This document shows positions 1,950 to 48,563 of a stretch of 55,232 nt of DNA, one piece after another (within the stretch, counting starts at the first letter, position 1; the number at the start of each line of letters is the position of its first letter). Below the pieces are notes generated by a model that was given only the letters and a program-made list of their open reading frames with translations, was not told the DNA's origin and did no database searches. Source of the stretch: a virus (lineage: Duplodnaviria; Caudoviricetes). The position numbers and the translations under genes are program-made. The stretch is taken from positions 1 to 55,232 of IMG/VR virus record IMGVR_UViG_3300011440_000024. One strand, 5' to 3'.

Positions 1950-3203
1950 GTGCCACGCTATCCTATCAGAGCTAGACAACGACCTCCCCGTAAGGGAATC
2001 TTTCGTTCCATCTTTACTATAGGTGGAGCATATGTTCCTCCTGTCGAATATGTAGATAGTGCTACAGTATATCTCGATCTACAACCAGCTAGTTCTGATG
2101 TTGCTGACTACATTGATAGTGCACAAGTTTATCTTGAATTAACAGCTAGTGGTTCTGATGTTCTAGAAGCTGTAGATAGTGCGGAGGTATATCTTGATCT
2201 TCAATCGTCCGGCGTTGATACAGCACAATTCGATGATGCTGCCACGGTCTATATGGACCTTACCGCCTCTGGCGTTGATATTGCTGAGTTTGTGGATTCT
2301 GCAACGGTGGGGTTACTTCTCACACCTTCGTCTGTCCAGAACTTCGATGCAGTAGATTCTTCTGAGATATATCTAGACCTACAACCTGAATCTACATTTG
2401 AAGAGCATACGACATTCGATGCGGCAGAAGTATATCTTGATCTTCAAGCATCAGGTGTTGATGAACTCACTCGGGAATATCTAGATACGGCGGAAATTTA
2501 TGTTGATCTACAACCAGACAGTTCCGACACAGCCGAATTTGTTGACTCAAGTAATGTGTATCTTGATCTTCAATCAAGTGGTTCCGATATCACAGAGTTT
2601 GCAGATGAAGCTACAGTGTACTTTGACCTTCAACCAACCAGTGACGATGTAGGAGAATTCGTAGATGCTGCTACTACGTATCTTGACATACAGCCTAGTG
2701 GCTCTGATGTTGGAGACTTTATTGATTCTGTTATCGTTCCTCTTGTTCTCTCTGCAAGTGGCGTAGACGAATATACACCTGCAAGTGGTGGCACAGAGTA
2801 TCTTGATTCAGCGGAGGTCTATCTTGACATACAACCTACTAGTGTTGATACAGCCGACTTCATTGATTCAGCAACCGTTGACCTCGACATATCCATCACG
2901 ACACAGGATATCGCGCAGTTCGATGATGCAGCTACAGTATTTTTGGGATTGGTACCTTCAACGACAGATGTAGCAGATTTTGTAGATACCAACCAAGTCT
3001 ATCTTATACTGACACCAACAGGTGTTGAAGAACTTTCATTTGCTTATAGTGATACAGCAATTGTCTATCTCGATCTGCAAGTCCTTGTATTTATTGCTCC
3101 AACGATGGACTTGCAAGTCCTTGGAATATCGCGCAGATGGGTTCTTCAGATTAACAGACGCTTTGAGGTAATAGGAGGGCCAGTTAAACAGTGGATATTT
3201 TAA
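1950..3203 (+). CDS. Acidic tandem-repeat protein (about 17 units of ~20 aa, consensus EFVDSATVYLDLQPSGSDVA); putative fibre/scaffold
   Basis: Repeats directly visible in the translation. Confidence 0.7.
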   Translation: MPRYPIRARQRPPRKGIFRSIFTIGGAYVPPVEYVDSATVYLDLQPASSDVADYIDSAQVYLELTASGSDVLEAVDSAEVYLDLQSSGVDTAQFDDAATVYMDLTASGVDIAEFVDSATVGLLLTPSSVQNFDAVDSSEIYLDLQPESTFEEHTTFDAAEVYLDLQASGVDELTREYLDTAEIYVDLQPDSSDTAEFVDSSNVYLDLQSSGSDITEFADEATVYFDLQPTSDDVGEFVDAATTYLDIQPSGSDVGDFIDSVIVPLVLSASGVDEYTPASGGTEYLDSAEVYLDIQPTSVDTADFIDSATVDLDISITTQDIAQFDDAATVFLGLVPSTTDVADFVDTNQVYLILTPTGVEELSFAYSDTAIVYLDLQVLVFIAPTMDLQVLGISRRWVLQINRRFEVIGGPVKQWIF

Positions 3204-3499
3204 AGAAGAATACAGTTGAGCCTGTTCTTGTAAGTTTGCGAGATAGGCTTCAGAATATAACCGATCTATCTACAGTAACTACTCCACGATTCGATGTAAG
3301 AGATTCAGCCGACGTGCTTAAGATTACTAACGGTATTCCAACCTTTGATGCTGACCACCCTATGACAGCTATCTGTCTCATTGACACTAGTACCGGCGGT
3401 GGATGGGCTTCAGATGAATACCGGCTTTATTTCAAGTACACAGACGGTTCTTCTATGCCTATTCTATTTGCTGGAAAGTTTCGCGTCGAAGATGATTGA
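3191..3499 (+). CDS. Small Ig/BppU-like virion adaptor; paralog of 54409..54726
   Basis: Shared motifs PxFDVxDSAD, CLxDTxxGGxWA, EYRL with 54409..54726. Confidence 0.5.
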   Translation: MDILKKNTVEPVLVSLRDRLQNITDLSTVTTPRFDVRDSADVLKITNGIPTFDADHPMTAICLIDTSTGGGWASDEYRLYFKYTDGSSMPILFAGKFRVEDD

Positions 3500-4896: not shown

Positions 4897-6339
4897 ATGG
4901 CAAAGAAGAAAGATAACCGAAACAAACGCAATCTAGTAACTCGTATCTTTCAAGCTGCTCCCGATCCGCGAAAACGGTCAACCGGCACTTCTCTAAATGC
5001 AAGGGGAGCGGTGCCTGTTGATAGTTCAGCCACTAGTGAATTAGGCTCATCGCGTGGTGGAGTTACAAGAGACATTGTTCCTGCATTGGGTCAGGGAGCG
5101 CAAGCAATTCGCATCTATGACCAAATGTCTAACTCTCTTGCTAGTGTCGATGTTTCGCTTCGTGCGGGTAAGATGCCTATTATGGGTGCAATGTTCTTTA
5201 TCGAATCATACGATGATTCACAAGAGAACATTGACATCAAACAGTTCGTTGAATACAATCTTCTTAGAGGAACGGCAGCACCATTTCTTCTCGTACTAGA
5301 AGATATCCTTCGTATGTACGAATACGGTTATACCGTATTCGAGAAGGTATATGAGAATAGAGAATGGGCGCCTAAACGTGGTGGAGCTAATCGTCGTAAG
5401 TACACAATGCTAAAGAAGCTAGCTCCACGTCCTACTCCTACTATCAAGAAGATTAACTACGACGACAATGGTGGTCCCCTTAGTATCGTGCAATCTGCTG
5501 TCGATAGGAATAACAAAGTTAAAGATGTTGAGCTGGATATCTCTAAGCTCATCGTATTCAGCTTTAATAAAAAGGGCGGCAATCTAGAAGGTAAGTCGAT
5601 CCTTCGTACTGCATATCAGCATTGGTACTACGTTGATAACCTTTACAAGATTGATGGTATTCAGAAGGAACGTCATGGTATGGGATTCCCTGTACTTGAA
5701 CTTCCTCCTGGATTTAAAGATGCTGACAAACTTGCAGCAGAGTTGCTAGTTCAGAACATTCGTACTAACGAGCATGGCGGAATGGTTCTACCTCCTGGCT
5801 TTAAATTCCATTTCGCAGAATTGCCAGGGCAACCTGTTAACGTGATGGAATCTATCGACCATCATAACGGGATGATTATGCTTAACGTTATGGTTCAGTT
5901 CCTTATGATGGGTATTCAAGGTAGCGGTAGTGGTGGTAGAGCAACTGCTGGATCGCATCAGGATATGTTCACGAAGTCACTACGCTATGTAGGAAATCTC
6001 ATCTGCGATTGGATGAACTACTATCTCATTCCACAATTGGTTGCATATAACTTTGAAACTGACAAGTTCCCACGATTGCAGATCAAAAATATCGGTGAAA
6101 CGAAAGACTTGCAACAGTGGGGATCAGCAGTTGCAAACCTTGCTGCACAGAATCTTATCACTCTTGATTTGGAGACAGAACAGTGGGTTCGTTCTATTCT
6201 CGATGCGCCACCTAAAATGGGAGGTAAGCAAACTCCTGAAGCTAATGCAGGTAACGCAAGCGAGAAGAAGGGAGATATTGAATCAGGTGTTGGTGATGGA
6301 GGTAATGCAGGAGTTCCTACTGATGATGCGGATACATAA
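4897..6339 (+). CDS. Portal protein (Mu gp29/DUF935-like)
   Basis: Directly after TerL; GKSILRTAY, ERHGMGFP, LIPQLVAYNF motifs typical of DUF935 portals. Confidence 0.85.
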   Translation: MAKKKDNRNKRNLVTRIFQAAPDPRKRSTGTSLNARGAVPVDSSATSELGSSRGGVTRDIVPALGQGAQAIRIYDQMSNSLASVDVSLRAGKMPIMGAMFFIESYDDSQENIDIKQFVEYNLLRGTAAPFLLVLEDILRMYEYGYTVFEKVYENREWAPKRGGANRRKYTMLKKLAPRPTPTIKKINYDDNGGPLSIVQSAVDRNNKVKDVELDISKLIVFSFNKKGGNLEGKSILRTAYQHWYYVDNLYKIDGIQKERHGMGFPVLELPPGFKDADKLAAELLVQNIRTNEHGGMVLPPGFKFHFAELPGQPVNVMESIDHHNGMIMLNVMVQFLMMGIQGSGSGGRATAGSHQDMFTKSLRYVGNLICDWMNYYLIPQLVAYNFETDKFPRLQIKNIGETKDLQQWGSAVANLAAQNLITLDLETEQWVRSILDAPPKMGGKQTPEANAGNASEKKGDIESGVGDGGNAGVPTDDADT

Positions 6340-17337: not shown

Positions 17338-18561
17338 ATGGCTTACCAATCAGGAGAATGGGTAATTGAGTTTCGTGAGAATACCGCCGCAGCGAGATTA
17401 ACCGCATGGGTGAAACCTCCGAGACTTAAATGGACCATCCGTAATTCCGAGAAGGGCGAGATGACTTGTGAGTTGCCCATCGGAATGGAAGAGTACGATG
17501 GTTCTCCTATGAGTAGAGACGGTATTGTCCCTTGGCATACCGATTGGTATTTGTATCGAGGCAACACTTTACGTGATGCAGGTATCGTTACATCTATCAA
17601 TCTAGCTGACGATAGAGATAGTGTTCTTGTTGCAGGAATGAACTGGCTTGGCTATCTAGAACATCGGACATATCCGTTCGATCCTGAACAGTATGTCAAT
17701 GACCATGATTGGGCAAGCTGGCCTAAAATTTGGGGCGAAGGTGCTTCCACAGGTGTTGATCTTAGAATCATTGTGGAGGATATCCTAGAAGCAATGATTG
17801 AGGCAACTATCAGTCAGGGAGCTTTCACGATTTCTGCCGCTTTCTTTACTCCCCCATTCATCCTTGCGAATCGTAACACTGGTCTTATGGGTAGATACAA
17901 AATTTTGCCTGGTGACGAGACAACTATTTTCGATCATATCAAGAAGCTATCTGAAAACTCTGACGGATTTGAATTTGACGTTCTGCCACAAAATCTTGAG
18001 TTTAGGATGTACGTTCCTAACCGAGATCAAGGTACACCAGTCTATCGTTTCACTAAGAACGAAAGACTCATTGCTCTGGATTGGACTAACGAAGGACCAC
18101 TGGCAACAGTGACAACTATTCTTGGTACAGGAAGTAGCATAAAGCGCGGAGTAATTCGTACAGACTTTGAGAGTGTGGTTCGTTATAGATGGACGGATCG
18201 TGTTGCTAACGTAGGGCAAGTTGCATCACAAGCTGCGTTGGAGAAAGCAGCACAAGGCGAACAATTTGAAGATCGCTTCCCTCGTAAGAAAGCTGGCTTT
18301 AAGATTCACGATCCTGAACTACTAACTCCGAATTTCTGGACTGGTGGTAGACCACGATCATTACTTGGCAATCGCGTTCGTGTTAATCACGACTTTTTCT
18401 TCCATAGAGTTAATGCTGATTACCGTATTCAAGTAATCAACGTTGAAGTAGACGAGCATGGAAATGAATCAGTTGACTTTGAACCCGAAATGATTAACAC
18501 ACCTGAAACAAATCCCGCTTTTGGTGGTGGCGGTGGCGGTGGAGGATTTGAGTCATCGTGA
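17338..18561 (+). CDS. Minor tail / baseplate hub protein
   Basis: Position; GFEFDV and LGNRVRV patterns of siphovirus hub proteins. Confidence 0.65.
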   Translation: MAYQSGEWVIEFRENTAAARLTAWVKPPRLKWTIRNSEKGEMTCELPIGMEEYDGSPMSRDGIVPWHTDWYLYRGNTLRDAGIVTSINLADDRDSVLVAGMNWLGYLEHRTYPFDPEQYVNDHDWASWPKIWGEGASTGVDLRIIVEDILEAMIEATISQGAFTISAAFFTPPFILANRNTGLMGRYKILPGDETTIFDHIKKLSENSDGFEFDVLPQNLEFRMYVPNRDQGTPVYRFTKNERLIALDWTNEGPLATVTTILGTGSSIKRGVIRTDFESVVRYRWTDRVANVGQVASQAALEKAAQGEQFEDRFPRKKAGFKIHDPELLTPNFWTGGRPRSLLGNRVRVNHDFFFHRVNADYRIQVINVEVDEHGNESVDFEPEMINTPETNPAFGGGGGGGGFESS

Positions 18562-19196
18562 GCACTAGCAAACCTAAGAATATTCCACGCAAACGAAAAT
18601 TCGCTCCTGATCCTCCAACTCCTGAAACATATCTTTTGGAGCGTGTGGAATATCTTGAAAACGAAGTTCGATTGCTACGTCAAAATCTTCAGGTTCCTAC
18701 TGTTCATACATTTGATCGGTCGCAGTACATTGATGCAACGCAAGGTGAAATGTTTTGGGATCATAAGAACCAGCGTAGCTATGTATTCCATCACGATTAT
18801 TACAGACCTACGCAACCTCCTACTTATCATATCAAAGTTTTCCATGATGAGAAAGCTGTTACCGCTGGTGACGGGAAATTCAAATTTAAAATATCGAGAG
18901 ATATGGGTGGGTGGACACCGCCTGTCGGAGAACCATATCCTTCGTTCTATCTCTATGATGCAGAAGCCTATGTTACTACGGCTGGTTCTTGCACTATATC
19001 TCTTACCAATGATACTAAAGGCGTAGATATGTTGTCTAGTCCTTTGGTTATTACTTCTTTGAATGATACCGGAACAAGAGTTATTCATCCAACTAACAGT
19101 CTAGTTGATTGGGAAGATCATGTTTGGATCAATGTAGATTCTGCTGGCGGCATGGGTCTTGGTGTCATTCTAGTATTCAATCCGGTGCTTACCTGA
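18558..19196 (+). CDS. Minor tail protein
   Basis: N-terminal coiled coil LLERVEYLENEVRLL followed by beta domain. Confidence 0.55.
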   Translation: MSTSKPKNIPRKRKFAPDPPTPETYLLERVEYLENEVRLLRQNLQVPTVHTFDRSQYIDATQGEMFWDHKNQRSYVFHHDYYRPTQPPTYHIKVFHDEKAVTAGDGKFKFKISRDMGGWTPPVGEPYPSFYLYDAEAYVTTAGSCTISLTNDTKGVDMLSSPLVITSLNDTGTRVIHPTNSLVDWEDHVWINVDSAGGMGLGVILVFNPVLT

Positions 19197-19217
19197 AATT
19201 TGAAATAGTGAATTATA

Positions 19218-19862
19218 ATGGCTGATATTAGAGTTAGTCCTGCTGTAATTGACGATTTTGAAAGAGCCGACGAAAATCCAATTGCTTTGCCTTGGACAAA
19301 AAATTGGAGTGCCGGTGGTACGATAGCTTGCGAACTCTCTAGTGGCATTCTTCATAGTCCAGCTATCAACCCTGCAACATCAGGACAGAGTTTCTATTCC
19401 GCAGAATCTTATACTCAAGATGGTGGTTCAATTGTAGAAGCATGGGGTTTAGCATCTGGACAAATTCCACAAGCGGAAAGTACCCGTTTTGGCTTATGTG
19501 ATGATGCTGCCGGTATGAATGGTTACATCTGCCGTTGTGAGAATCCCGTTGGTGACAATCCTTGGACTATCCGCAAATATGTAAATGGTACAGCTAGTGA
19601 GATAGCACAAAATTCTAACTTTACTTTGCCCGAAGCAGGTGATTACTGTTTAATGCAGCTTACGGATACAGCAGTAAATTGCTATTACGCGCAGAACGGG
19701 GATACAGAGAATTGGACTCTAGTTGTATCAGCGGCAGACACAACATTTCGATCTAATCTCTTTCTACATTTTGGTGGTAATGGATCAAACCCAGGATGGG
19801 AAGCTGTAGGTGGGGGCAAAGAATTAGAACTGTCACAAATCTATCGTAGACCTGGTGAATAG
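19218..19862 (+). CDS. Putative receptor-binding/lectin-like tail protein
   Basis: DDFERAD...W motif and beta-rich sequence; ends IYRR. Confidence 0.5.
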   Translation: MADIRVSPAVIDDFERADENPIALPWTKNWSAGGTIACELSSGILHSPAINPATSGQSFYSAESYTQDGGSIVEAWGLASGQIPQAESTRFGLCDDAAGMNGYICRCENPVGDNPWTIRKYVNGTASEIAQNSNFTLPEAGDYCLMQLTDTAVNCYYAQNGDTENWTLVVSAADTTFRSNLFLHFGGNGSNPGWEAVGGGKELELSQIYRRPGE

Positions 19863-19865
19863 TGT

Positions 19866-20084
19866 ATGCAGAATAGTACCGATCCCCTCCTACAATGGCT
19901 ATCTAATGCAGGAGCACTCGGTATTCTTGCCGCCGCCTGTGTTGCATTTCTTAAGGGATGGATTGTTCCACGAGCAACATATGAGCGCGCACTTGCCGAG
20001 AAGGATCGTGCGTTGGAACTTGTTTACAAACAAGCTGATGTTGCACAGAAAGCTCTGGAAGCCGCAGAGAAATTCAAGCCATGA
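19866..20084 (+). CDS. Membrane protein (lysis cassette, holin-like)
   Basis: One TM segment then GWIVP and coiled coil. Confidence 0.55.
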   Translation: MQNSTDPLLQWLSNAGALGILAAACVAFLKGWIVPRATYERALAEKDRALELVYKQADVAQKALEAAEKFKP

Positions 20085-20254
20085 GAAATTGGGTGAAACG
20101 ATTACTTGGACGTGAGGGCAAAGAGAACTCAGTACGTATACAGGGGGAACTAGATGCTATGGAAGAAAAAGTTAAACGATACGAAATGCGCGTCGAACAT
20201 CTAAGACGTGAGAGAGCATTGTACGATCAGAGACGTAAGAGGATAGTCGAGTGA
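20081..20254 (+). CDS. Small coiled-coil protein (57 aa, not in ORF track)
   Basis: ATGA/GTGA overlaps with both neighbours; MRNWVKRLLGREGK... Confidence 0.6.
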   Translation: MRNWVKRLLGREGKENSVRIQGELDAMEEKVKRYEMRVEHLRRERALYDQRRKRIVE

Positions 20255-20670
20255 TTGCCTTCCATAACTCTCTAATCGAAATCCCCGAATGGGGTACGAT
20301 TACTCTCATTGAAGTCCTGTGGTTGGCTTCGGGATTAATGGCACTCGCCTTCGCCTCTCTACGCATACGCCCATTGTGGATAGATTATGAACTTACCAAA
20401 CGTCTTGGTGATGCAGACTTGTATATTATCGCGCGAGGTTATTTACGCCGCGAAGCCCTCCGTATAGTGACAGCATTGGCTATTACATTCATCGGTGCCT
20501 ACTCCGTACTAACTAATCCTGCATTTTCTGGCCCTGCGAGAGTCAGCGTAGGAGGCTTACTTGTAACTGCAAGTCTGTTCGTCGTTTCCCTCATAGTCTC
20601 GATGAATAGTATTCTCGATTGGCATGACCGAGTTCGCACTATGGAGATAATTCGGAGGGGTATCAAATGA
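20251..20670 (+). CDS. Multi-pass membrane protein (lysis cassette)
   Basis: Three hydrophobic segments. Confidence 0.55.
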   Translation: MIAFHNSLIEIPEWGTITLIEVLWLASGLMALAFASLRIRPLWIDYELTKRLGDADLYIIARGYLRREALRIVTALAITFIGAYSVLTNPAFSGPARVSVGGLLVTASLFVVSLIVSMNSILDWHDRVRTMEIIRRGIK

Positions 20671-34680: not shown

Positions 34681-34709
34681 ACCCTATCACATCTGCTCTT
34701 AAAAGTCAA
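34681..34709 (-). promoter_or_regulatory. Sigma70-type promoter TTGACT-N17-TAGGGT
   Basis: Exact 17-nt spacer, TG before -10, intergenic. Confidence 0.65.
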
Positions 34710-34717
34710 GCACACTT

Positions 34718-35380
34718 CTACGTTTTTGTTTTAGCAACTTCCCCATGATATAGCTTTAAACTGTTTGGGAAGTATTCTATTCTAATTTCGTTCCAACGTT
34801 TCTCAGTGATCTGCTTCAATCTGTATCTATTGCGCCAACGTTCGTAACAACCGCCACAGCCGCGAGTAATGTTTGTCCGTGGAGTTCCACACTTATTACA
34901 TTTATCTAATCCACGTCCGTTGCGGCGTTCTGTCTGCCAGCGTATTCGTTCATCGGTACTGTATTCATTTTTTCGATGTATTGAAATAAGTTCAAGCATC
35001 ACTTTACGAAGACTATTCTTCTGGACATACTTACGTGTAGAACTTACGAAGACTTGCCGAATCTGATACAGAGATAGACCAGTACGAATAGATAGCTCTG
35101 TCATGCCAATACGGTTAACTGCTTCATTATAGTACGGACGTGCAATCCTGATATCAACGTAACCATGATGAGAGCCAGGCTTGGCACTTTTAACTTTATC
35201 CCAAGCATAACATAATCGACACCATGAAGTCAACTTACCAGTACGACGAACGTAATAGTATTTCTCTGTAGCAGGCAACCATTCAGGTTGTTCATGTGCT
35301 GAACCTGAACAGAGCTTATTCCATACACCGTCAATTAAATGGTAACGTCCTGATTTTAATTGTTGTTCGGAAGGAACCAC
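34718..35380 (-). CDS. Hypothetical Cys-containing DNA-binding protein
   Basis: CxxC pairs and possible HTH; basic. Confidence 0.5.
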   Translation of the reverse strand: MVPSEQQLKSGRYHLIDGVWNKLCSGSAHEQPEWLPATEKYYYVRRTGKLTSWCRLCYAWDKVKSAKPGSHHGYVDIRIARPYYNEAVNRIGMTELSIRTGLSLYQIRQVFVSSTRKYVQKNSLRKVMLELISIHRKNEYSTDERIRWQTERRNGRGLDKCNKCGTPRTNITRGCGGCYERWRNRYRLKQITEKRWNEIRIEYFPNSLKLYHGEVAKTKT

Positions 35381-37193: not shown

Positions 37194-37691
37194 TTATCCT
37201 CCCTTCTTGAGTTCTGACCGTACAACCATTAGCAATCTACCTAGATGATTCTCGCCAACCCAGGTGACATTACCATCACCATCAGTAACAGGTGAACAAC
37301 CCCAATATCTATCGTTCCATGAATTACCTTCGATAAGTTCTGCATCACCCGTTGCTTTAAGTAACCTACCAAAACTAGGAAGAGCAAACTTATATCGCAA
37401 ACCTGCCAACATCACGTCGTTCTTCACTTCTTCCCAATCGGTACGAAGGATTGTATTCTTACCGAGAGTCTTAGCATGACGACAGGTTCTAGCTTTAGAG
37501 ATTGTAACTGCATCTGTGAATCTAATAGCTTTGCTAGCCTGAAAGTAATGCTCAACAGTAGGAAACTTAAGTGAGTACTCATCTTCTGTATTAACAATTT
37601 CCACACCATAAGGTGCAGCTTGAAATAGGCTGCTACTAAAGTTTGAGAGAAACTTATATGCCCCTCGGAATGAGGTTATTTGTTGCGACAT
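37194..37691 (-). CDS. NADAR-family protein
   Basis: FLSNF, TVEHYFQA.K, DWE.VK..VM, LIEGN.W.D.YWG, GEN.LG.LLM. Confidence 0.92.
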   Translation of the reverse strand: MSQQITSFRGAYKFLSNFSSSLFQAAPYGVEIVNTEDEYSLKFPTVEHYFQASKAIRFTDAVTISKARTCRHAKTLGKNTILRTDWEEVKNDVMLAGLRYKFALPSFGRLLKATGDAELIEGNSWNDRYWGCSPVTDGDGNVTWVGENHLGRLLMVVRSELKKGG

Positions 37692-37701
37692 GCTACCCCC
37701 T

Positions 37702-38145
37702 TTATTTCAATGCTTGATTAATAGCACGATTAGGTGCCATGCCTCCATTAAGGAGCCGACGGTATTTATTACGAGCTTGCTTACACTTCAAGGTAATGGA
37801 ACAAAATAGTGATTCACCGGGAGTGCCACCCTTTATCGGACCTCCACAAACAACACACAAAGGTCTAACTGCATCAGCTACCATTACCCGCGCTTTGTTG
37901 AAACTCATGCCGGACAACATAAGGAACTCTATTACATCACCGTACTTCTTAAGCCACCGTTCCTCTTTGCAAGACCAGCATAACTTTCGTTGTGATTGTG
38001 GTGGTACTTCTATGCCACAGTCAATGCATAGTCCATTGCTTTTAGTACAAGCAACACACCAGCCACTCGATTCAACGAGTTTGCTAAGATCGCCACAACT
38101 AGGGCAAACATCTTCCTCTAGTGTATAATCTAAGCAGGCACTCAA
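37702..38145 (-). CDS. Cys-rich (multi-CxxC) Zn-binding protein
   Basis: Five CxxC motifs; TTG start. Confidence 0.55.
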   Translation of the reverse strand: MSACLDYTLEEDVCPSCGDLSKLVESSGWCVACTKSNGLCIDCGIEVPPQSQRKLCWSCKEERWLKKYGDVIEFLMLSGMSFNKARVMVADAVRPLCVVCGGPIKGGTPGESLFCSITLKCKQARNKYRRLLNGGMAPNRAINQALK

Positions 38146-38150
38146 CTACT

Positions 38151-38253
38151 AGGTCAGGGATACTCTAGGCATTTCAGGTAGCCGATATAATCGGGCCTGA
38201 CTATCCAATAGGCATCGTCACCGTATTACCCTCGTTACCTGATGCTACGACCT
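38151..38253 (-). ncRNA. Candidate structured RNA
   Basis: Closing AGGUC/GACCU stem, CCGAU-UAU-AUCGG hairpin, 14-bp partner at 39476-39489. Confidence 0.4.
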
Positions 38254-38258
38254 TAACA

Positions 38259-38384
38259 TGGGGGAGGGAATCGAACCCTATTATCCGTGGAGAACTTTGT
38301 GGCTTTCGCCTAACCACGCAAATACAACGGCCACTACTAACATATGCAGAGCTTAAGTACATATGCTTTCATTCCGTTCCCCCA
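38259..38384 (-). ncRNA. Candidate multi-stem RNA with tRNA-like T-loop
   Basis: UGGGGGA/UCCCCCA closing stem, 10-bp hairpin, GGC-GAAA-GCC tetraloop, GGG-UUCGAUU-CCC. Confidence 0.55.
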
Positions 38385-38402
38385 AGCTGTTGTTACTTCA
38401 GT

Positions 38403-38477
38403 TTACGCACCATCTTCTCCATCACCACTACCACCATCATCGGGTGCTGGCTCAGTAGGCTCATCTTCCCAACGCAT
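38403..38477 (-). CDS. 24-aa acidic micropeptide MRWEDEPTEPAPDDGGSGDGEDGA
   Basis: GGGGAGG RBS and TAATG coupling to the upstream gene. Confidence 0.45.
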   Translation of the reverse strand: MRWEDEPTEPAPDDGGSGDGEDGA

Positions 38478-38719
38478 TATAACCTCCCCTCCAATGCATA
38501 GTAGAGTCTTGATTTAGCAACTACATCTAATGCATCTGAGATATCTACTGTGCGCGGTAAGTTGTTCTGCCTACTTTGTATTCCCGAATCGGATTCATTT
38601 TCTTGCCATATTCTGTGATCGGATTCGGCTTTACCCACTGAGCTTGTGCTGTCGATGCTGTCATCAACACTACTAGTACGATCATCGCTAGAACGATCGT
38701 TGTAATTCTCATTGCTCAC
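38477..38719 (-). CDS. Ser/Asp-rich hypothetical protein
   Basis: AAGGGG RBS, GTG start. Confidence 0.5.
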   Translation of the reverse strand: MSNENYNDRSSDDRTSSVDDSIDSTSSVGKAESDHRIWQENESDSGIQSRQNNLPRTVDISDALDVVAKSRLYYALEGRL

Positions 38720-38731
38720 TTCATCCCCTTA

Positions 38732-39361
38732 TTAATATGGTTTGCAAGACCAGGGCGACCAATCTTTCCCTGATGCTACAAAGTATTCATACGCTGCTAC
38801 TGCTTGTTCGAGCGGCGTGTTACCATGTCCATATGTTGAACGTGCGAAGTTGCCCATCTGGAACATACCTAGATACTGTCCATTGTGTGCCCGGACACTA
38901 TAACTTGACCCTGATTCACAACGAGATACAGCAAGTGCCTGATCGCAGTAAGCTCCAAAGACGTGACAAATTGCCTCTCGTGGGTCTTGTAACTCAACGT
39001 ATGTTCTGAACGTATCATCTGCACGACCTGCCCACTTCTTTCCATTGAACTTAAGATAATGGCAACCGTGTGTTCTACGTTCTGCGTAACTTGTTCGTGT
39101 GCGGGGAACTAAAATCTTTTCTTGCCAACTCCATGTAGCAGTTCTTTTGGTACTAATATACTTCCTAGCACGATTGAGATTGCAAGTCTGCTTGTGACTA
39201 GACTTACTAAGCACTCTTGCATTTCTCTCTACAGCATTATCGTACTTACTTATGAGTACCGACTTGCTCTCCTGCGGTACTTGCTGTTGGCTAGTTGCCA
39301 CTGTTGCACCAACTAATACAAACGCAACAGTTATGGCTAGTATGGCAGCAACTCCCTTCAG
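38732..39361 (-). CDS. Secreted lysozyme-like lytic transglycosylase, probable CTG start
   Basis: RCESG, GMFQ, W.PW motifs; AGGAGG 8 nt before in-frame CTG 39361 gives signal peptide MKGVAAILAITVAFVLVG. Confidence 0.75.
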   Translation of the reverse strand: MKGVAAILAITVAFVLVGATVATSQQQVPQESKSVLISKYDNAVERNARVLSKSSHKQTCNLNRARKYISTKRTATWSWQEKILVPRTRTSYAERRTHGCHYLKFNGKKWAGRADDTFRTYVELQDPREAICHVFGAYCDQALAVSRCESGSSYSVRAHNGQYLGMFQMGNFARSTYGHGNTPLEQAVAAYEYFVASGKDWSPWSCKPY

Positions 39362-39790
39362 GACTTGTACCTCCTAGTAGATTACAGAATTGTGCCTCCT
39401 AATCCCCTTCGGTTGTAACTCGGCACCCAAGCCTTACCAACGCTAGTGTGATTTGCAACCATCACTAGTGGACTAGGTAATACGATGACCTCTGCAAAAG
39501 TCTCGTACCCTCTGGGGTCATTACGTTGCAGCGCACCCCATATATTGTGGAGTTAACGGAGGGGGGTCATATTGTGGTTATTAACCTATGCGTTGGGAAG
39601 CGCAACAATATGAACGGGGCGTTAACTCCACACTTAAGCTACTACGAATAGTAGCAATCTTTATACCTGCTTAGATTATCAAAGTACGGAAGTGCAGAAT
39701 AATGAGAATGGAGAAGCTACTAAGTTACGGCTTGTGCGGTAACTGTTCACTTCTCCATCTCAGAGTAACTACGTGGGGGTAGCAACTCAT
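39362..39790 (-). ncRNA. Hairpin-chain leader / sRNA cluster with segments antisense to downstream start sites
   Basis: No long ORF; five or more stem-loops; inverted matches of 10-14 nt to downstream translation-start regions; promoter immediately upstream. Confidence 0.65.
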
Positions 39791-39796
39791 TGCTGG

Positions 39797-39825
39797 ACAC
39801 TAGCAGAAAACTACTGTTGTGTCAA
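39797..39825 (-). promoter_or_regulatory. Sigma70-type promoter TTGACA-N17-TAGTGT driving the RNA locus
   Basis: Perfect -35, 17-nt spacer, TG extension. Confidence 0.7.
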
Positions 39826-40038
39826 GCCCCCAACTGCACTATCTGATAGTTCTTCCATACTTAGGAGAATCCCGAAGTTGGCATAAATTAGCCAGATAAA
39901 CATATGGTCAACGAAGTCCTGCTCACTTAGGAAGTAAGCAGTAAATTCAATTGGCATATGATACTTGACATTCCAACTGTTGTATGTATGGAAGTTCTCC
40001 ATACTAAACGTCATCATATTGAAGGGTGTACTTCTCAT
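39811..40038 (-). CDS. Hypothetical protein
   Basis: ORF only; weak RBS. Confidence 0.3.
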   Translation of the reverse strand: MRSTPFNMMTFSMENFHTYNSWNVKYHMPIEFTAYFLSEQDFVDHMFIWLIYANFGILLSMEELSDSAVGGLTQQ

Positions 40039-40049
40039 ATGACGTTTAG

Positions 40050-40092
40050 TATAGAGGGGGCAGCTACGTTACTGGTAACTACCCCACTCCAT
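40050..40092 (-). terminator. GC-rich hairpin after 40105..40446 (terminator or processing stem)
   Basis: GGAGUGGGGUAGUUAC / GUAGCUGCCCCCUCU stem; no clear U tract. Confidence 0.35.
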
Positions 40093-40104
40093 ACAGTTAC
40101 TTAC

Positions 40105-40446
40105 TTAACCTGTAACCGCCTGATTGACGATATACACGTTACCCTTCTTGCTGGACACCTTAAGCTGCTTGAACTCTTCAGGCGCATCGTCAGCCTTACG
40201 AGCATTCTCAAATCCCGTCTTGACTGTAGATGCCTTACGTCCCTCAAAGTGTCCCTTATCCGTAGGAATCCTAGCTGCACGAACTCCGTTATCAACGATC
40301 TGCTGAAGGATAGACTTATACTCACCCTTCGACCTAACGGAACTAAGTGCCTCACCAATCTCTTCATCACTAAGCGGCTCGAACATTAGATCAGTCATAT
40401 TCTCTCCTGTGGTTTGTGTGTTTTGTGTATTACGTGGTCTTGCCAT
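40105..40446 (-). CDS. Hypothetical protein, paralog of 47777..48175; second in-frame start at 40398
   Basis: LMFEP...KGE...F.G pattern shared. Confidence 0.6.
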   Translation of the reverse strand: MARPRNTQNTQTTGENMTDLMFEPLSDEEIGEALSSVRSKGEYKSILQQIVDNGVRAARIPTDKGHFEGRKASTVKTGFENARKADDAPEEFKQLKVSSKKGNVYIVNQAVTG

Positions 40447-40449
40447 AAT

Positions 40450-40917
40450 TTATGTGCTACCCCCTTTCTCCTTCTCTAGTCTTACTAGACGTTCTTCGTG
40501 ATTTACTACAACTGCTTTGATATCTAATCCCTTTAACCTCCCTTCTAGATTAGTAATCCTTTGCTCTAACTCATCGAGAGGAATCGTAGCAGGTTTCGCA
40601 CCACCTGTCAAGGTCTTATCACCTTTGACATAGCGTGCGTCGTATGCGTCCTCAGTGGGAGCACCATGCAGGCGATACCGTGTAGGTCTGCCGCGTGCCC
40701 CTCTGTCGATGAGTTCTATGCAACCAAGTTCCTTAAGAGCATTGAATAATACAGTATAGTGAGCCATAGATATACCAAGTGAATGGAATGTAGTAACTAC
40801 CTTACCTTCGTATGTCGTGGTACTCTTGGCACCTTTCTTCTTGATGACAGTAGACTCTTTCTCCATAGCTTCGTATAGCTGGAGGAGATAGCTAAACTTT
40901 CTAGCTTCAGGTGGCAT
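40450..40917 (-). CDS. Winged-helix DNA-binding protein with C-terminal coiled coil
   Basis: LKELGCIE...GRPTRYRL wing; leucine-zipper end. Confidence 0.55.
   Translation of the reverse strand: MPPEARKFSYLLQLYEAMEKESTVIKKKGAKSTTTYEGKVVTTFHSLGISMAHYTVLFNALKELGCIELIDRGARGRPTRYRLHGAPTEDAYDARYVKGDKTLTGGAKPATIPLDELEQRITNLEGRLKGLDIKAVVVNHEERLVRLEKEKGGST
40583..40611 (-). promoter_or_regulatory. Sigma70-type promoter TTGACA-N17-TACGAT (intragenic)
   Basis: Near-consensus with TG extension. Confidence 0.6.
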
Positions 40918-42873: not shown

Positions 42874-43302
42874 TCATGCAATACAACTCCCATCAGGCCA
42901 AATTATAATGGTATGTTTCTTCTTCCTATCTCTACTGAATCTAACGCACGACCATGTACCCTGTCCTCTTGCGGGTTCAGGTTCAACAAACTCTTTAGGA
43001 GTAGCTATCATAATGTCTACCCCTCTCACAATAACTTCGTTCCTCTTTAATGGAGGCTTACGAGGTAGAGTACGATCCGACTTAAAGTTACCAGTGTACT
43101 CAATCAGGGTAGACGGATGAGCTACAGTAATGTAGTGAATGTTATCCGCTATCTGTGCGGCCTGTTCATCAGCACCTATACAGTTACCATGATGGAATTC
43201 TTCTGCATTATTGTGCGCCCGGTAGTATGAGAGCAAAGATGCAAGAGTACGCTTCTGCTCATAACTCATACCTTCACGAGTTCCGGTAAATCCGATCTTC
43301 AA
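42874..43302 (-). CDS. SLOG/YspA-like nucleotide-binding protein
   Basis: IGFTGTR, HGNCIGAD, RN..IV, GTW motifs. Confidence 0.75.
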   Translation of the reverse strand: MKIGFTGTREGMSYEQKRTLASLLSYYRAHNNAEEFHHGNCIGADEQAAQIADNIHYITVAHPSTLIEYTGNFKSDRTLPRKPPLKRNEVIVRGVDIMIATPKEFVEPEPARGQGTWSCVRFSRDRKKKHTIIIWPDGSCIA

Positions 43303-43349
43303 CGGCTACCCCCTGTAGATACTGAAGTCTTTAGAACAGATTACATTCC

Positions 43350-43378
43350 ATCCTAGCACAAATCGCAGCGTAAGTCAA
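43350..43378 (-). promoter_or_regulatory. Sigma70-type promoter TTGACT-N17-TAGGAT
   Basis: 17-nt spacer, TG extension, intergenic. Confidence 0.7.
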
Positions 43379-48534: not shown

Positions 48535-48563
48535 AGAGTACCATCTTTCGCTCGTTGTGTCAA
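48535..48563 (-). promoter_or_regulatory. Sigma70-type promoter TTGACA-N17-TACTCT
   Basis: Perfect -35, 17-nt spacer, TG extension. Confidence 0.65.

What the first reader, a model, noticed from the sequence alone, without database searches (positions are those of the whole stretch)
37691..39825. Candidate multi-target antisense RNA system: one promoter-driven hairpin chain complementary to the start sites of four consecutive downstream genes and two ncRNAs
Seen: a promoter at 39797-39825 (-) reads into ~430 nt with no ORF but stacked hairpins. Separate segments are inverted matches to 37691-37700 (NADAR RBS, 10 nt), 38705-38722 (start of 38477..38719, 9+6 nt), 38125-38141 (first codons of 37702..38145, 14 nt + 3 incl. 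G:U), 38465-38492 (micropeptide RBS/start, 13+6+7 nt), 38217-38230 (14 bp incl. one G:U) and 38350-38358 (loop of the T-loop RNA). Mismatches in the 38217 and 38125 helices become G:U pairs on the minus-strand RNA, supporting RNA-level selection. Rough expectation for one exact 14-mer between a 430-nt and an 1100-nt window at equal base use is about 0.002, and several such matches occur, mostly on start sites. The partner order is not nested, so this is not one simple fold-back. Inference: a polycistronic sRNA cluster or switchable leader coordinating translation of an operon that includes a secreted muralytic enzyme and an anti-ADP-ribosylation gene. I know of no named family with this layout.
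Basis: partly seen in the sequence, partly recalled or inferred. Interest (0 to 1): 0.92.

Follow-up and report, generated by a model that had tools for sequence, protein, structure and literature searches.

The report
Phage leader RNA with anti-ribosome-site hairpin
An uncultivated phage carries a conserved, promoter-driven, hairpin-rich non-coding leader RNA whose first hairpin is the mirror image of the ribosome-binding sites of a few phage genes, so it probably acts as an antisense brake on their translation, although only part of the proposed six-target network holds up in relatives.

Summary
All six inverted matches exist at the stated coordinates. As a set they exceed chance. There are 7 matches of 9 nt or more against 1.4 in shuffles, and two of 13 nt or more against 0.003. 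This is also the only place in the genome with two matches of 12 nt or more.

The 430-nt ORF-free stretch is a real element:
- Its promoter belongs to a six-member motif family.
- It folds far better than shuffles, as do its counterparts in relatives.
- Its hairpins covary.
- No Rfam family, tRNA or terminator explains it.

In relatives the best-supported pairing is the shortest one. Hairpin H1, with a C-rich anti-Shine-Dalgarno loop, matches the ribosome site of the gene after the Cys-rich gene (NADAR here, helicase elsewhere). Matched pairs average 10.4 nt and cross-clade pairs 5.6 nt, and the true pairing is the best of 120 permutations.

The 14-mer on the Cys-rich gene start is conserved in two close relatives, without covariation. 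The 13-mer and the other three matches occur only in this window.

There is no transcript evidence. Verdict: a new antisense-type phage leader RNA, with the multi-target claim partly supported.

The parts
39797..39825 (-). Leader promoter: TTGACA, a 17-nt spacer ending in TGc, then TAGTGT (extended -10 type).
   Evidence: One of 6 hits of TTGAC-N14-16-TGnTAnnnT, all on the minus strand, against 0.5 expected. The -35 and TGcTA are conserved in L002 and L073. The same motif precedes the leader in L003, L004, L077, L081, L084 and L085. The TATAAT-based scan does not call it.
39763..39788 (-). H1, the first hairpin of the RNA (GAGUUGCUAC-CCCCAC-GUAGUUACUC). It has a C-rich, anti-Shine-Dalgarno-like loop. 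UGCUACCCCC is the complement of three ribosome sites.
   Evidence: Hairpin covariation over 7 lineages: 83.9% of cells paired against 54.1% in shuffles, 7 of 8 pairs changed on both sides, 0 of 500 shuffles reach the score. Complementarity to ribosome sites.
39704..39761 (-). H2, a long hairpin.
   Evidence: Folded. The stem sequence differs in L002 and L073 but still pairs: GAGAUGGAGAAG, GAAAUGCGGGGAG and AGUGUGGGAAG each face a matching 3' arm. Read.
39665..39684 (-). seg1, a conserved block CUUUGAUAAUCUAAGCAGGU between H2 and H3. It contains the 14-mer complementary to the start of the Cys-rich gene.
   Evidence: 14-nt exact match. 17 of 20 positions are invariant in WIN, L002 and L073. It is unpaired in the centroid fold.
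39638..39655 (-). H3, a small hairpin (GCUACUA-UUCG-UAGUAGC).
   Evidence: L002 has a different hairpin at the same place (UUGCCC-AUAU-AGGGCAA).
39546..39632 (-). H4, a 13-bp perfect stem enclosing C-rich sub-hairpins. Its interior holds the 13-mer (39588-39600) and CCCCCCUCC (39560-39568), which are complementary to the micropeptide start and Shine-Dalgarno site.
   Evidence: (I11). The stem covaries in L002 (C-G to U-A) and in L073 (two A-U to G-C changes); read. The interior is not conserved.
39476..39489 (-). Segment complementary to 38217-38230 (14 bp with one G.U).
   Evidence: I9. It has no counterpart in L002 or L073.
39359..39377 (-). AGGAGGU ribosome site and probable CUG start of the membrane-anchored lysozyme-like gene (38732..39361).
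   Evidence: An in-frame stop lies 5 codons upstream, and the conserved hydrophobic N-terminus precedes the first GTG. CTG stands at the same place in L002 and L073. Weak SLT_3 domain, E = 8.7e-4, below the Pfam cut-off.
37691..37700 (-). NADAR ribosome site GGGGGUAGCA (the last A is the A of the AUG). It is a target of H1.
   Evidence: Second best of 18,374 windows on the minus strand for H1. NADAR domain E = 8.8e-29. The homologous site precedes NADAR in L073 and the helicase in L002.
38125..38145 (-). First 21 nt of the Cys-rich gene (UUG start). It is a target of seg1.
   Evidence: Longest invariant run in the three-genome alignment of the gene, whose mean column identity is 79%. No Shine-Dalgarno site lies directly upstream (read).
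38465..38492 (-). Ribosome site and start of the acidic 24-aa micropeptide (MRWEDEP...).
   Evidence: 13-nt match. Best of 5,228 windows in a whole-leader duplex scan. The peptide is conserved in L002 and L073. The pairing is not.
40455..40464 (-). GGGGGUAGCA upstream of gene 40105..40446.
   Evidence: (D17). Duplex z = -3.45 (WIN), -5.1 (L002) and -3.9 (L073), with 0 shuffles reaching the observed value in each.
38259..38384 (-). tRNA-like element in the second non-coding stretch. It has a 7-bp acceptor-like stem and a T-arm with GGUUCGAUUCC.
   Evidence: Only sub-threshold Rfam hits, for a tmRNA T-arm and a Tymo tRNA-like element. ARAGORN finds nothing. The T-arm is kept and the acceptor stems differ but still pair in L002 and L073 (read).

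Best explanation
Window 39362-39825 (minus strand) encodes a long structured leader RNA of about 430 nt. It is transcribed from a conserved extended -10 promoter and runs into a membrane-anchored lysozyme-like gene.

I infer that its 5'-terminal hairpin H1, which presents a C-rich anti-Shine-Dalgarno-like loop, base-pairs with the ribosome-binding sites of a small set of phage genes and blocks ribosome access. In this window the set is NADAR at 37691-37700, the gene at 40446, and probably the gene at 43302. In relatives it includes the SNF2 helicase. In distant relatives the helicase has its own promoter, so there the pairing would act in trans, as a kissing-hairpin antisense pair. In this window it could act in trans or within one long transcript.

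A second exposed segment, seg1, probably does the same at the UUG start of the Cys-rich gene in this clade.

The window-only matches (the 13-mer on the micropeptide start and the 38217 helix) are either young lineage-specific targets, perhaps born as inverted copies of the target, or by-products.

Shown: the sequence complementarity, its excess over chance, structural conservation with covariation, and co-variation between H1 and the ribosome site across clades.

Inferred: transcription, the strand, and the pairing and its effect on translation in cells.
For: 1. The element is real.
- The promoter motif occurs 6 times on the minus strand against 0.5 expected.
- Fold z = -5.3 in the window, -11.7 in L002, -7.3 in L003 and -8.5 in L004.
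- The H1 hairpin covaries over 7 lineages; 0 of 500 shuffles reach the score.
- The gene strand folds better than the opposite strand in 8 of 10 leader segments.

2. H1 matches the ribosome site of the first gene after the Cys-rich gene.
- Exact complements are 10 nt (WIN), 8 (L002), 9 (L073), 8 plus 6 across one bulge (L004), 8 (L078), 10 (L077), 16 (L081), 15 (L084), 12 (L085) and 8 (L003).
- The matched mean is 10.4 nt. The cross-clade mean is 5.61 nt (sd 1.38, max 9, n = 72).
- With one representative per clade, the true pairing is the single best of 120 permutations, in two choices of representatives.

3. In an open search of the 2 kb upstream for the best complement of the helicase start region, H1 ranks first in L081, L084 and L085. 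It is the longest match listed in L077. It ties at 8 nt in L004 and ranks second in L078.

4. In the window clade the shared site GGGGGUAGC(A) extends 4-5 nt past what 16S pairing would explain. The 16S tail used for this comparison is recalled, not from a call.

5. Duplex energies against shuffled leaders:
- Gene 40446 site: z = -3.45, -5.1 and -3.9, with 0 shuffles reaching the observed value in each genome.
- NADAR or helicase site: -1.8, -1.2 and -3.85.
- Cys-rich start: -3.0 and -2.5 in WIN and L002.

6. The Cys-rich gene start is the longest invariant run (21 nt) in the three-genome alignment. seg1 is a conserved island in otherwise unalignable sequence.

7. L002 and L073 carry a second loop (CAGGCrCUCA) complementary to the same start. 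The one substitution in it gives G.U on the gene strand.
Against: - There is no transcript evidence of any kind.
- The window's leader folds slightly better on the opposite strand (-150.3 against -146.1 kcal/mol).
- Within the close clade both arms of every long-range pair are simply conserved.
- In seg1 only 1 of 3 substitutions keeps pairing, which is what chance gives (read). In L073 the Cys-start duplex is no better than shuffles (z = -0.1 and -0.3).
- The micropeptide pairing is absent in L002 and L073.
- L003, L004 and L005 show no excess of leader-to-downstream complementarity. L002 shows only a marginal one.
- H1 resembles the 16S anti-Shine-Dalgarno tail, and 2-3 ribosome sites per genome share a long consensus. 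Part of the H1 complementarity may therefore follow from mimicry of the ribosome rather than from gene-specific targeting.
- Control ribosome sites sometimes match as well as the helicase site, for example 12 against 12 nt in L085 and 11 against 8 nt in L002.
- No H1-type complement was found in L076, L079, L080, L083 or L088.
- The start sites of L003 (ORF 5037) and L078 were fixed after I had seen the matches.
Confidence: 0.5

Rival explanations
1. The leader acts only in cis. The hairpin chain controls the stability, termination or translation of its own lysozyme-like gene. A 5'-terminal hairpin, for example, protects against decay, and the C-rich loops pair with the gene's own ribosome site. 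Complementarity to other genes' start sites is then a side effect of anti-Shine-Dalgarno-like loops meeting G-rich ribosome sites.
For: - In every lineage the leader lies directly upstream of the lysozyme-like gene or its N-terminal homologue.
- H1 starts about 8 nt after the -10 element, so it sits at the extreme 5' end of the RNA.
- No terminator separates the leader from the gene.
- The gene uses a rare CUG start after a strong AGGAGGU site.
- Several ribosome sites per genome match H1 about equally well.
- In the window's minimum-energy fold the H1 region pairs with the 3' end of the leader, which includes that ribosome site.
Against: - The leader is no more complementary to its own gene's start site than shuffles are: z = +0.75 (WIN), +0.17 (L002), -0.2 and +1.7 (L073).
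- The H1 match reaches 12-16 nt, into lineage-specific flanks of the helicase site.
- H1 and that site change together between clades.
- This reading explains neither the 21-nt invariant start of the Cys-rich gene nor the conserved seg1.
Confidence: 0.25
2. The feature works at the DNA level. The inverted copies are operator sites for a phage DNA-binding protein placed just downstream of two promoters, or they are neutral products of template-switch mutation in a hairpin-rich region. Either way no RNA pairing is involved.
For: - Stems are mostly perfect Watson-Crick, and the window's leader folds equally well on both strands.
- In L004, L081, L084 and L085 both H1 and its complement lie 0-12 nt after a promoter -10 element.
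- Each close relative has its own private long matches: 13 nt in WIN; 10 nt in L002; 12 and 11 nt in L073. That pattern fits a mutational source.
Against: - In every lineage the complement is centred on the Shine-Dalgarno site of a gene. An operator has no reason to be there.
- In the window clade the NADAR or helicase site has no promoter beside it (read; one search lists none there).
- The gene strand folds better in 8 of 10 leader segments.
- The few imperfect positions are G.U on the gene strand.
Confidence: 0.15
3. Chance plus shared composition: a C-rich non-coding stretch meets G-rich start regions, with no selection on the matches.
For: - The three 9-mers are at genome-wide background density of about 1.7 per kb.
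- Whole-leader duplex scans are noisy: mean -23.7, sd 3.9 kcal/mol.
- One other place in the genome holds a 16-mer by the same test.
Against: - 0 of 300 shuffles give two matches of 12 nt or more.
- This is the only place among 351 windows with two such matches.
- The 14-mer pair and the H1 pair are conserved or co-varying in relatives.
Confidence: 0.05

Closest known systems
c4 antisense RNA of phages P1 and P7 (immI operon)
   Same: Both are phage-encoded RNAs made from a promoter upstream of their targets. Both have short complementarities to a downstream gene region in the same operon, and both control the expression of that gene. For c4, passages of PMC8201110 state that Ant expression is regulated by the C4 antisense RNA and name a 'C4-antisense-RNA binding site'. 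The two-segment pairing over the icd ribosome site and the RNase P processing are recalled. The search listing only shows that two RNase P papers mention c4.
   Different: - No Rfam family, c4 included, matches the window or eight relatives.
- This RNA is about 430 nt with many hairpins, not about 77 nt (the c4 length is recalled).
- No processing site is known here.
- Its lead element is an anti-Shine-Dalgarno hairpin at the 5' end.
- The targets are replication and anti-defence genes, not an antirepressor.
C-rich-loop small RNAs of Gram-positive bacteria (6C/B11 of Actinobacteria; RoxS/RsaE of Firmicutes)
   Same: Both have hairpin loops rich in C that pair with G-rich ribosome-site regions of several mRNAs. 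For 6C I saw the title and the start of the abstract of PMC6486639. For RoxS I saw only the listing of PMC8216469.
   Different: - Those are short chromosomal RNAs with their own terminators.
- This is a phage leader with no terminator found, continuous with a coding gene.
- No sequence or structure match to any Rfam family was found.
Kissing-hairpin antisense pairs of plasmids (CopA/CopT, RNAI/RNAII, Sok/hok)
   Same: In L084 and L081 both H1 and the helicase start region can form hairpins with fully complementary 6-nt loops (UCCCUU and AAGGGA) and complementary stems (read). That is the layout of loop-loop initiated antisense control. The plasmid systems are recalled.
   Different: - Those antisense RNAs are read from the opposite strand of their target and are fully complementary to it.
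- Here the two partners are encoded 1.3-2.2 kb apart on the same strand and share 8-16 nt.

Membership tests
Any Rfam family (including C4 antisense RNA, 6C, riboswitches, ribozymes, ROOL/GOLLD/HEARO) | A covariance-model match at the family's gathering score. | tested here: not met
   0 matches in the whole window and 0 in eight related loci. With E up to 10 on 37600-40100 there were only five sub-threshold hits, none in those families.
c4-type co-transcribed antisense RNA | An RNA encoded upstream of its target in the same transcription unit, with short complementarity over the target's ribosome site. | tested here: inconclusive
   The layout and the complementarity are present. Transcription, processing and effect were not tested. 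In distant relatives the target has its own promoter.
c4-type co-transcribed antisense RNA | Release of a discrete small RNA by processing (RNase P for c4; recalled). | not testable with these tools
   No RNA run is listed for this sequence. A tRNA-like element lies 1 kb downstream (38259-38384), but nothing links it to processing of the leader.
C-rich-loop multi-target sRNA (6C, RoxS type) | Two or more C-rich hairpin loops. | tested here: met
   H1 loop CCCCAC, and H4 interior CGCCCCG and CCCCCCUCC in the window. Loops CUCCCAAAC, UUCCU and CUAUCUCCCCUA in L003. CUCCC, UGCCC and CCCUCCCC in L004.
C-rich-loop multi-target sRNA (6C, RoxS type) | A discrete short transcript ended by its own terminator. 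| tested here: not met
   No terminator-like site on the gene strand of the leader in the window, L002, L003 or L004. The scan only accepts loops of 3-8 nt.
Sigma-70-type promoter | -35 TTGACA and -10 TATAAT, each at 4 of 6 or better, with a 16-18 nt spacer. | tested here: inconclusive
   The -35 is perfect, but the -10 TAGTGT scores 3 of 6, so the scan does not list it. It does fit the extended -10 form TGnTAnnnT, which is enriched 6 against 0.5 and conserved in relatives.
tRNA (for the element at 38259-38384) | A cloverleaf with an anticodon arm recognised by a tRNA finder. | tested here: not met
   ARAGORN finds 0 genes in the window and in 8 relatives. Only the T-arm and the acceptor-like stem are present.

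The most novel reading that the evidence does not exclude
These uncultivated phages carry an undescribed class of riboregulator. It is a strong-promoter leader RNA whose 5'-terminal anti-Shine-Dalgarno hairpin forms kissing complexes with the start sites of replication (helicase) and anti-defence (NADAR) genes. It gains new targets quickly by copying target start sites in inverted form into its own hairpin loops, as the window's 13+6+7 match to the micropeptide start suggests. One RNA would then time the translation of a whole middle-gene block.
Probability: 0.25. Interest if true: 0.78.

Novelty: new variant of a known kind. Interest (0 to 1): 0.6.

Why it matters
If the pairing is real, this is a family of phage regulatory RNAs absent from Rfam. 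It occurs in a group of freshwater-sediment and groundwater phages that have no cultured relative. Their helicase is at most 26% identical to any deposited phage, and the Cys-rich protein has no match.

It would show how such phages shut off or time a replication helicase and an anti-defence NADAR gene at the level of translation. It would also be a natural example of a ribosome-site mimic used as an antisense seed.

In practice it turns a 430-nt unannotated gap into an annotatable element. It also offers compact hairpin and ribosome-site pairs that co-vary and could serve as orthogonal translational switches.

Even if the antisense reading fails, three results stand as annotation: the conserved leader, the six-member promoter family, and the tRNA-like element.

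Tried and rejected
- Known RNA families: none in the window or in 8 relatives. tRNA or tmRNA: none.
- Intrinsic terminators inside the leaders: none on the gene strand. My eye-read 'long last hairpin plus U-rich tail' in L003 and L004 is therefore not claimed.
- A plus-strand micro-ORF (39588..39674, MRWE..., 28 aa) as the reason for the 13-mer: rejected. The L002 counterpart has no similar ORF (read) and the Shine-Dalgarno spacing is 20 nt.
- Sequestration of the lysozyme gene's own ribosome site by the leader: no better than shuffles.
- Group I intron, HEARO/omega RNA, retron RNA, riboswitch and put-type antiterminator: considered from recall. No Rfam support, and no split gene or reverse transcriptase nearby.
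- More relatives:
  - blastn against deposited phages found nothing.
  - A 16-mer scan of viral contigs gave 50 stretches, of which only L046 is the known relative.
  - H1 and Cys-start patterns found only the two known close relatives.
  - The metagenome scan found only the L002 contig again.
  - The genome collection gave 0 hits by pattern and 0 by protein.
- Whole-leader duplex scans are noisy. In L002 the top hits were unrelated places.
- L003, L004 and L005: no excess of leader-to-downstream complementarity.
- No RNA holder is listed for this stretch.
- Contigs of four DNA runs laid on 37600-39900 showed no variant in either non-coding stretch, and parts were without cover. They gave no micro-diversity test.
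- Supplementary files of papers were not opened.

Full report
**Setting.** The window is a complete virus record of 55,232 bases. Structural genes lie on the plus strand. A long minus-strand block runs from about 49.6 kb down to 23 kb.

On the minus strand the finding covers, in order:
- a conserved 75-aa ORF (39811..40038);
- a non-coding stretch (39362-39810, here NC2);
- a membrane-anchored lysozyme-like gene (38732..39361; weak SLT_3 hit; probable CUG start);
- two overlapping small frames;
- an acidic 24-aa micropeptide;
- a second non-coding stretch (38146-38402, NC1);
- a Cys-rich 147-aa gene (37702..38145; weak similarity to a PHROG annotated as HNH endonuclease);
- a NADAR gene (37194..37691);
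- an SNF2 helicase.

Against dinucleotide shuffles of NC2, the region 37691-38722 holds 7 matches of 9 nt or more (mean 1.44) and 2 of 13 nt or more (mean 0.003). No shuffle among 300 reached two matches of 12 nt or more.

I also slid the same geometry along the real genome as an empirical null. Of 351 overlapping windows, only this place has two matches of 12 nt or more. Genome-wide, NC2 has 93 inverted matches of 9 nt or more, about 1.7 per kb. The three 9-mers are therefore individually unremarkable. The signal rests on the 14-mer, the 13-mer and the clustering.

**NC2 is a real, conserved element.**
- The tool's TATAAT rule does not call the promoter.
- The promoter fits TTGAC-N14-16-TGnTAnnnT. 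That motif occurs six times, always on the minus strand inside the minus-strand gene block, against 0.5 expected.
- NC2 folds with z = -5.3. The opposite strand folds equally well (z = -5.9).
- No Rfam family, tRNA or terminator explains it.

**Relatives.**
- Two close relatives exist, each about 70% identical in DNA: L002 and L073.
- Further scans found no other close relative.
- More distant phages share the module of leader promoter, lysozyme-like gene, Cys-rich gene and helicase: L003, L004 (about the same as L005), L077, L078, L081 (same as L082), L084 and L085.
- L076, L079, L080, L083 and L088 share only the Cys-rich gene and the helicase.
- In L003 and L004 the leader is shorter and folds at z = -7.3 and -8.5. 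L002 gives z = -11.7.
- The gene strand folds better than its complement in 8 of 10 leader segments. The window and L077 are the exceptions.
- Among WIN, L002 and L073 the promoter, H1, the 3' arm of H2, seg1 and the 3' arm of H4 are conserved islands. The stems of H2, H3 and H4 differ in sequence yet still pair (read).
- For H1, a gap-free alignment of seven lineages gives 83.9% paired cells against 54.1% in shuffles. 7 of 8 pairs are changed on both sides. 0 of 500 shuffles reach the covariation score, and all slid controls are far lower.

**The shortest claimed match is the best supported.** H1 is the first hairpin after the promoter in all ten lineages that have it. Its C-rich loop resembles the anti-Shine-Dalgarno sequence. 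H1 is the exact complement of the ribosome site of the first gene after the Cys-rich gene:

| Lineage | Exact complement | Target gene |
|---|---|---|
| Window | 10 nt | NADAR |
| L073 | 9 nt | NADAR |
| L002 | 8 nt | helicase (no NADAR gene) |
| L004 | 8 nt plus 6 across one bulge | helicase |
| L078 | 8 nt | helicase |
| L077 | 10 nt | helicase |
| L081 | 16 nt | helicase |
| L084 | 15 nt | helicase |
| L085 | 12 nt | helicase |
| L003 | 8 nt | ORF 5037 |

- The paired sequences differ between clades: GGGGGUAGCA, CAGGGAGG-AUCUAG and ACCAAGGGAGGUAAGG.
- Matched pairs average 10.4 nt. Cross-clade pairs average 5.61 nt (sd 1.38, max 9, n = 72).
- With one representative per clade, the true assignment is the single best of 120 permutations, for two choices of representatives.
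- I searched the 2 kb upstream for the best complement of the 82-nt helicase start region, without pointing at H1. H1 came first in L081, L084 and L085. It was the longest match listed in L077. It tied at 8 nt in L004 and came second in L078. Nothing was found in L003, L076, L079, L080, L083 or L088, nor for the helicase site in WIN and L073, where NADAR holds that position.
- In the distant relatives the helicase has its own promoter at the end of the Cys-rich gene. The two RNAs would therefore meet in trans.
- In L084 and L081 both partners can form hairpins with complementary 6-nt loops, a kissing-pair layout (read).

**Caveats on H1.**
- Each H1 also matches one or two other ribosome sites almost as well. 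In the window these are the site at 40455-40464 (10 nt) and 43305-43313 (9 nt). L002 and L073 have an 11-nt match at the homologue of gene 40446. L081 and L085 have a second 12-nt site.
- By duplex energy, the gene-40446 site is the most consistent target in this clade: z = -3.45, -5.1 and -3.9, with no shuffle reaching the observed value. The NADAR or helicase site gives -1.8, -1.2 and -3.85.
- Part of this is expected if H1 simply mimics the 16S tail and these genes have long Shine-Dalgarno sites. The 16S sequence is recalled.
- In the window clade the shared UAGC(A) extension is not explained in that way.
- The 40455 site also encodes the C-terminus of the upstream protein (read), which could by itself keep it constant.

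**The 14-mer.**
- seg1 (39665-39684) lies between H2 and H3 and is unpaired in the centroid fold.
- Its partner is the first 21 nt of the Cys-rich gene. That stretch is the longest invariant run in the three-genome alignment, whose mean column identity is 79%. It has a UUG start and no nearby Shine-Dalgarno site.
- The pairing is 14 bp plus 3 in the window, two of the three being G.U.
- It is 12 bp plus 3 in L002, where one G.U has become G-C.
- In L073, 13 of 14 positions pair, with one U.U mismatch and one G.U (read).
- Only 1 of the 3 substitutions in seg1 keeps pairing, so covariation gives no support.
- Energy tests give z = -3.0 (WIN), -2.5 (L002) and -0.1 or -0.3 (L073).
- L002 and L073 have a second loop, in the last hairpin of the leader, complementary to the same start. 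Its one substitution gives G.U on the gene strand.
- I rate this pair as probable in the window clade but unproven.

**The other four matches.**
- In the window, the 13-mer plus the anti-Shine-Dalgarno run inside H4 covers the micropeptide's ribosome site and start codon. It gives the best window of 5,228 in the whole-leader scan.
- The micropeptide and its start region are conserved (88% over 130 nt with L002). The H4 interior is not, and the pairing is absent in L002 and L073.
- The 38217 helix and the 38350 and 38705 9-mers have no counterparts.
- Each close relative has its own private long matches: a 10-mer in L002; a 12-mer and an 11-mer to adjacent sites near the 3' end of the Cys-rich gene in L073. 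L073 also has 5 matches of 9 nt or more against 1.14 expected, reached by 0 of 200 shuffles.
- This recurring lineage-specific excess fits either rapid turnover of antisense targets or a mutational process that writes inverted copies into hairpin loops. I cannot tell which.

**Mechanism.** The reading I commit to is an antisense, anti-ribosome-site leader RNA, at confidence 0.5.
- Shown: the sequence facts above.
- Inferred: transcription from 39797-39825, use of the minus strand, pairing in the cell, and repression of translation.
- Whether the RNA acts as a whole leader, as a processed 5' fragment, in trans or within one long transcript is open.
- Rivals: a purely cis-acting leader (0.25), a DNA-level reading (0.15) and chance (0.05).
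- The cis reading is weakened because the leader is no more complementary to its own gene's start than shuffles are.
- The DNA reading is weakened because the complement always sits on a Shine-Dalgarno site, and because in this clade it has no promoter beside it.

**Comparison with known systems.**
- The closest known system is the c4 antisense RNA of P1 and P7. I saw passages of PMC8201110; further details are recalled.
- Also close are the C-rich-loop small RNAs such as 6C. I saw the title and the start of the abstract of PMC6486639.
- This element works like those but is not a member of either family, because no covariance model matches. It also differs in size, in having no terminator, and in being the leader of a coding gene.
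- My literature searches were for comparators. They do not establish that nothing similar is in print.

**Host.** The host is unknown. Weak hints point to Actinobacteria:
- The helicase's distant relatives (at most 26% identical) are mostly actinobacteriophages.
- The TGnTAnnnT promoter form is typical of that phylum (recalled).

DNA runs that hold the sequence are labelled freshwater sediment and groundwater.

**Verdict.** The feature is a new variant of a known kind of regulator. It is interesting mainly for the co-varying pair of anti-ribosome-site hairpin and start site. Interest is 0.6.

Noticed in passing
window 38259-38384 (-); L002 about 4975-5062; L073 about 3152-3238: A tRNA-like element sits in the second non-coding stretch. 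All three close relatives keep the T-arm GGUUCGAUUCC. Their 7-bp acceptor-like stems differ but still pair (UGGGGGA/UCCCCCA, UAACGGU/ACCGUUA, GCCGGAU/GUCCGGC). There is no normal anticodon arm and no CCA end. ARAGORN and Rfam do not call it. It could be a processing signal or a decoy.
   Followed up: partly
window 39359-39361 (-): The lysozyme-like gene seems to start at CUG, 8 nt after AGGAGG. A stop lies 5 codons upstream, and the conserved membrane segment lies before the first GTG. L002 and L073 have CTG at the same place. L004 uses TTG.
   Followed up: partly
window 38477-38719 (-); L073 2055-2222: Two overlapping frames may both be coding. One is a 55-aa signal-peptide protein (38545..38712), conserved in L002 and L073. 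The other is an 80-aa acidic frame whose last 26 residues are conserved. In L073 the signal-peptide ORF has moved into the middle of the leader, upstream of the lysozyme-like gene.
   Followed up: partly
window 38403-38477 (-): An acidic 24-aa micropeptide (MRWEDEPTEPAPDD...) follows a strong GGAGGGGAGG site. Its start overlaps the stop of the preceding frame. It is conserved in L002 and L073.
   Followed up: partly
window 34681-34709, 35204-35233, 39797-39825, 40583-40611, 43350-43378, 48535-48563 (all -): A family of six promoter-like sites, TTGAC-N14-16-TGnTAnnnT, against 0.5 expected. All lie in the minus-strand gene block. The same motif recurs in all relatives.
   Followed up: partly
window 37194-37691 (-): The NADAR gene is present in the window and in L073 but absent in L002. 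In L002 the same upstream ribosome-site sequence serves the helicase directly. This looks like insertion or loss of an accessory gene between a start site and the helicase.
   Followed up: partly
window 39997-40056: An 18-nt inverted repeat, 94% complementary with 24 nt between the arms, lies around the start of ORF 39811..40038. Just upstream, near 40080-40103, a GGGGUAGUUAC stretch also scores as a good H1 partner.
   Followed up: no
window 19750-20500 and about 18080-19400: The sliding control scan found a 16-nt inverted match between these two stretches, the longest of the scan. I did not examine it.
   Followed up: no
window 37966-37978 and 38741-38753: A 13-nt exact direct repeat, TTTGCAAGACCAG on the plus strand, occurs inside the Cys-rich gene and at the end of the lysozyme-like gene.
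   Followed up: no
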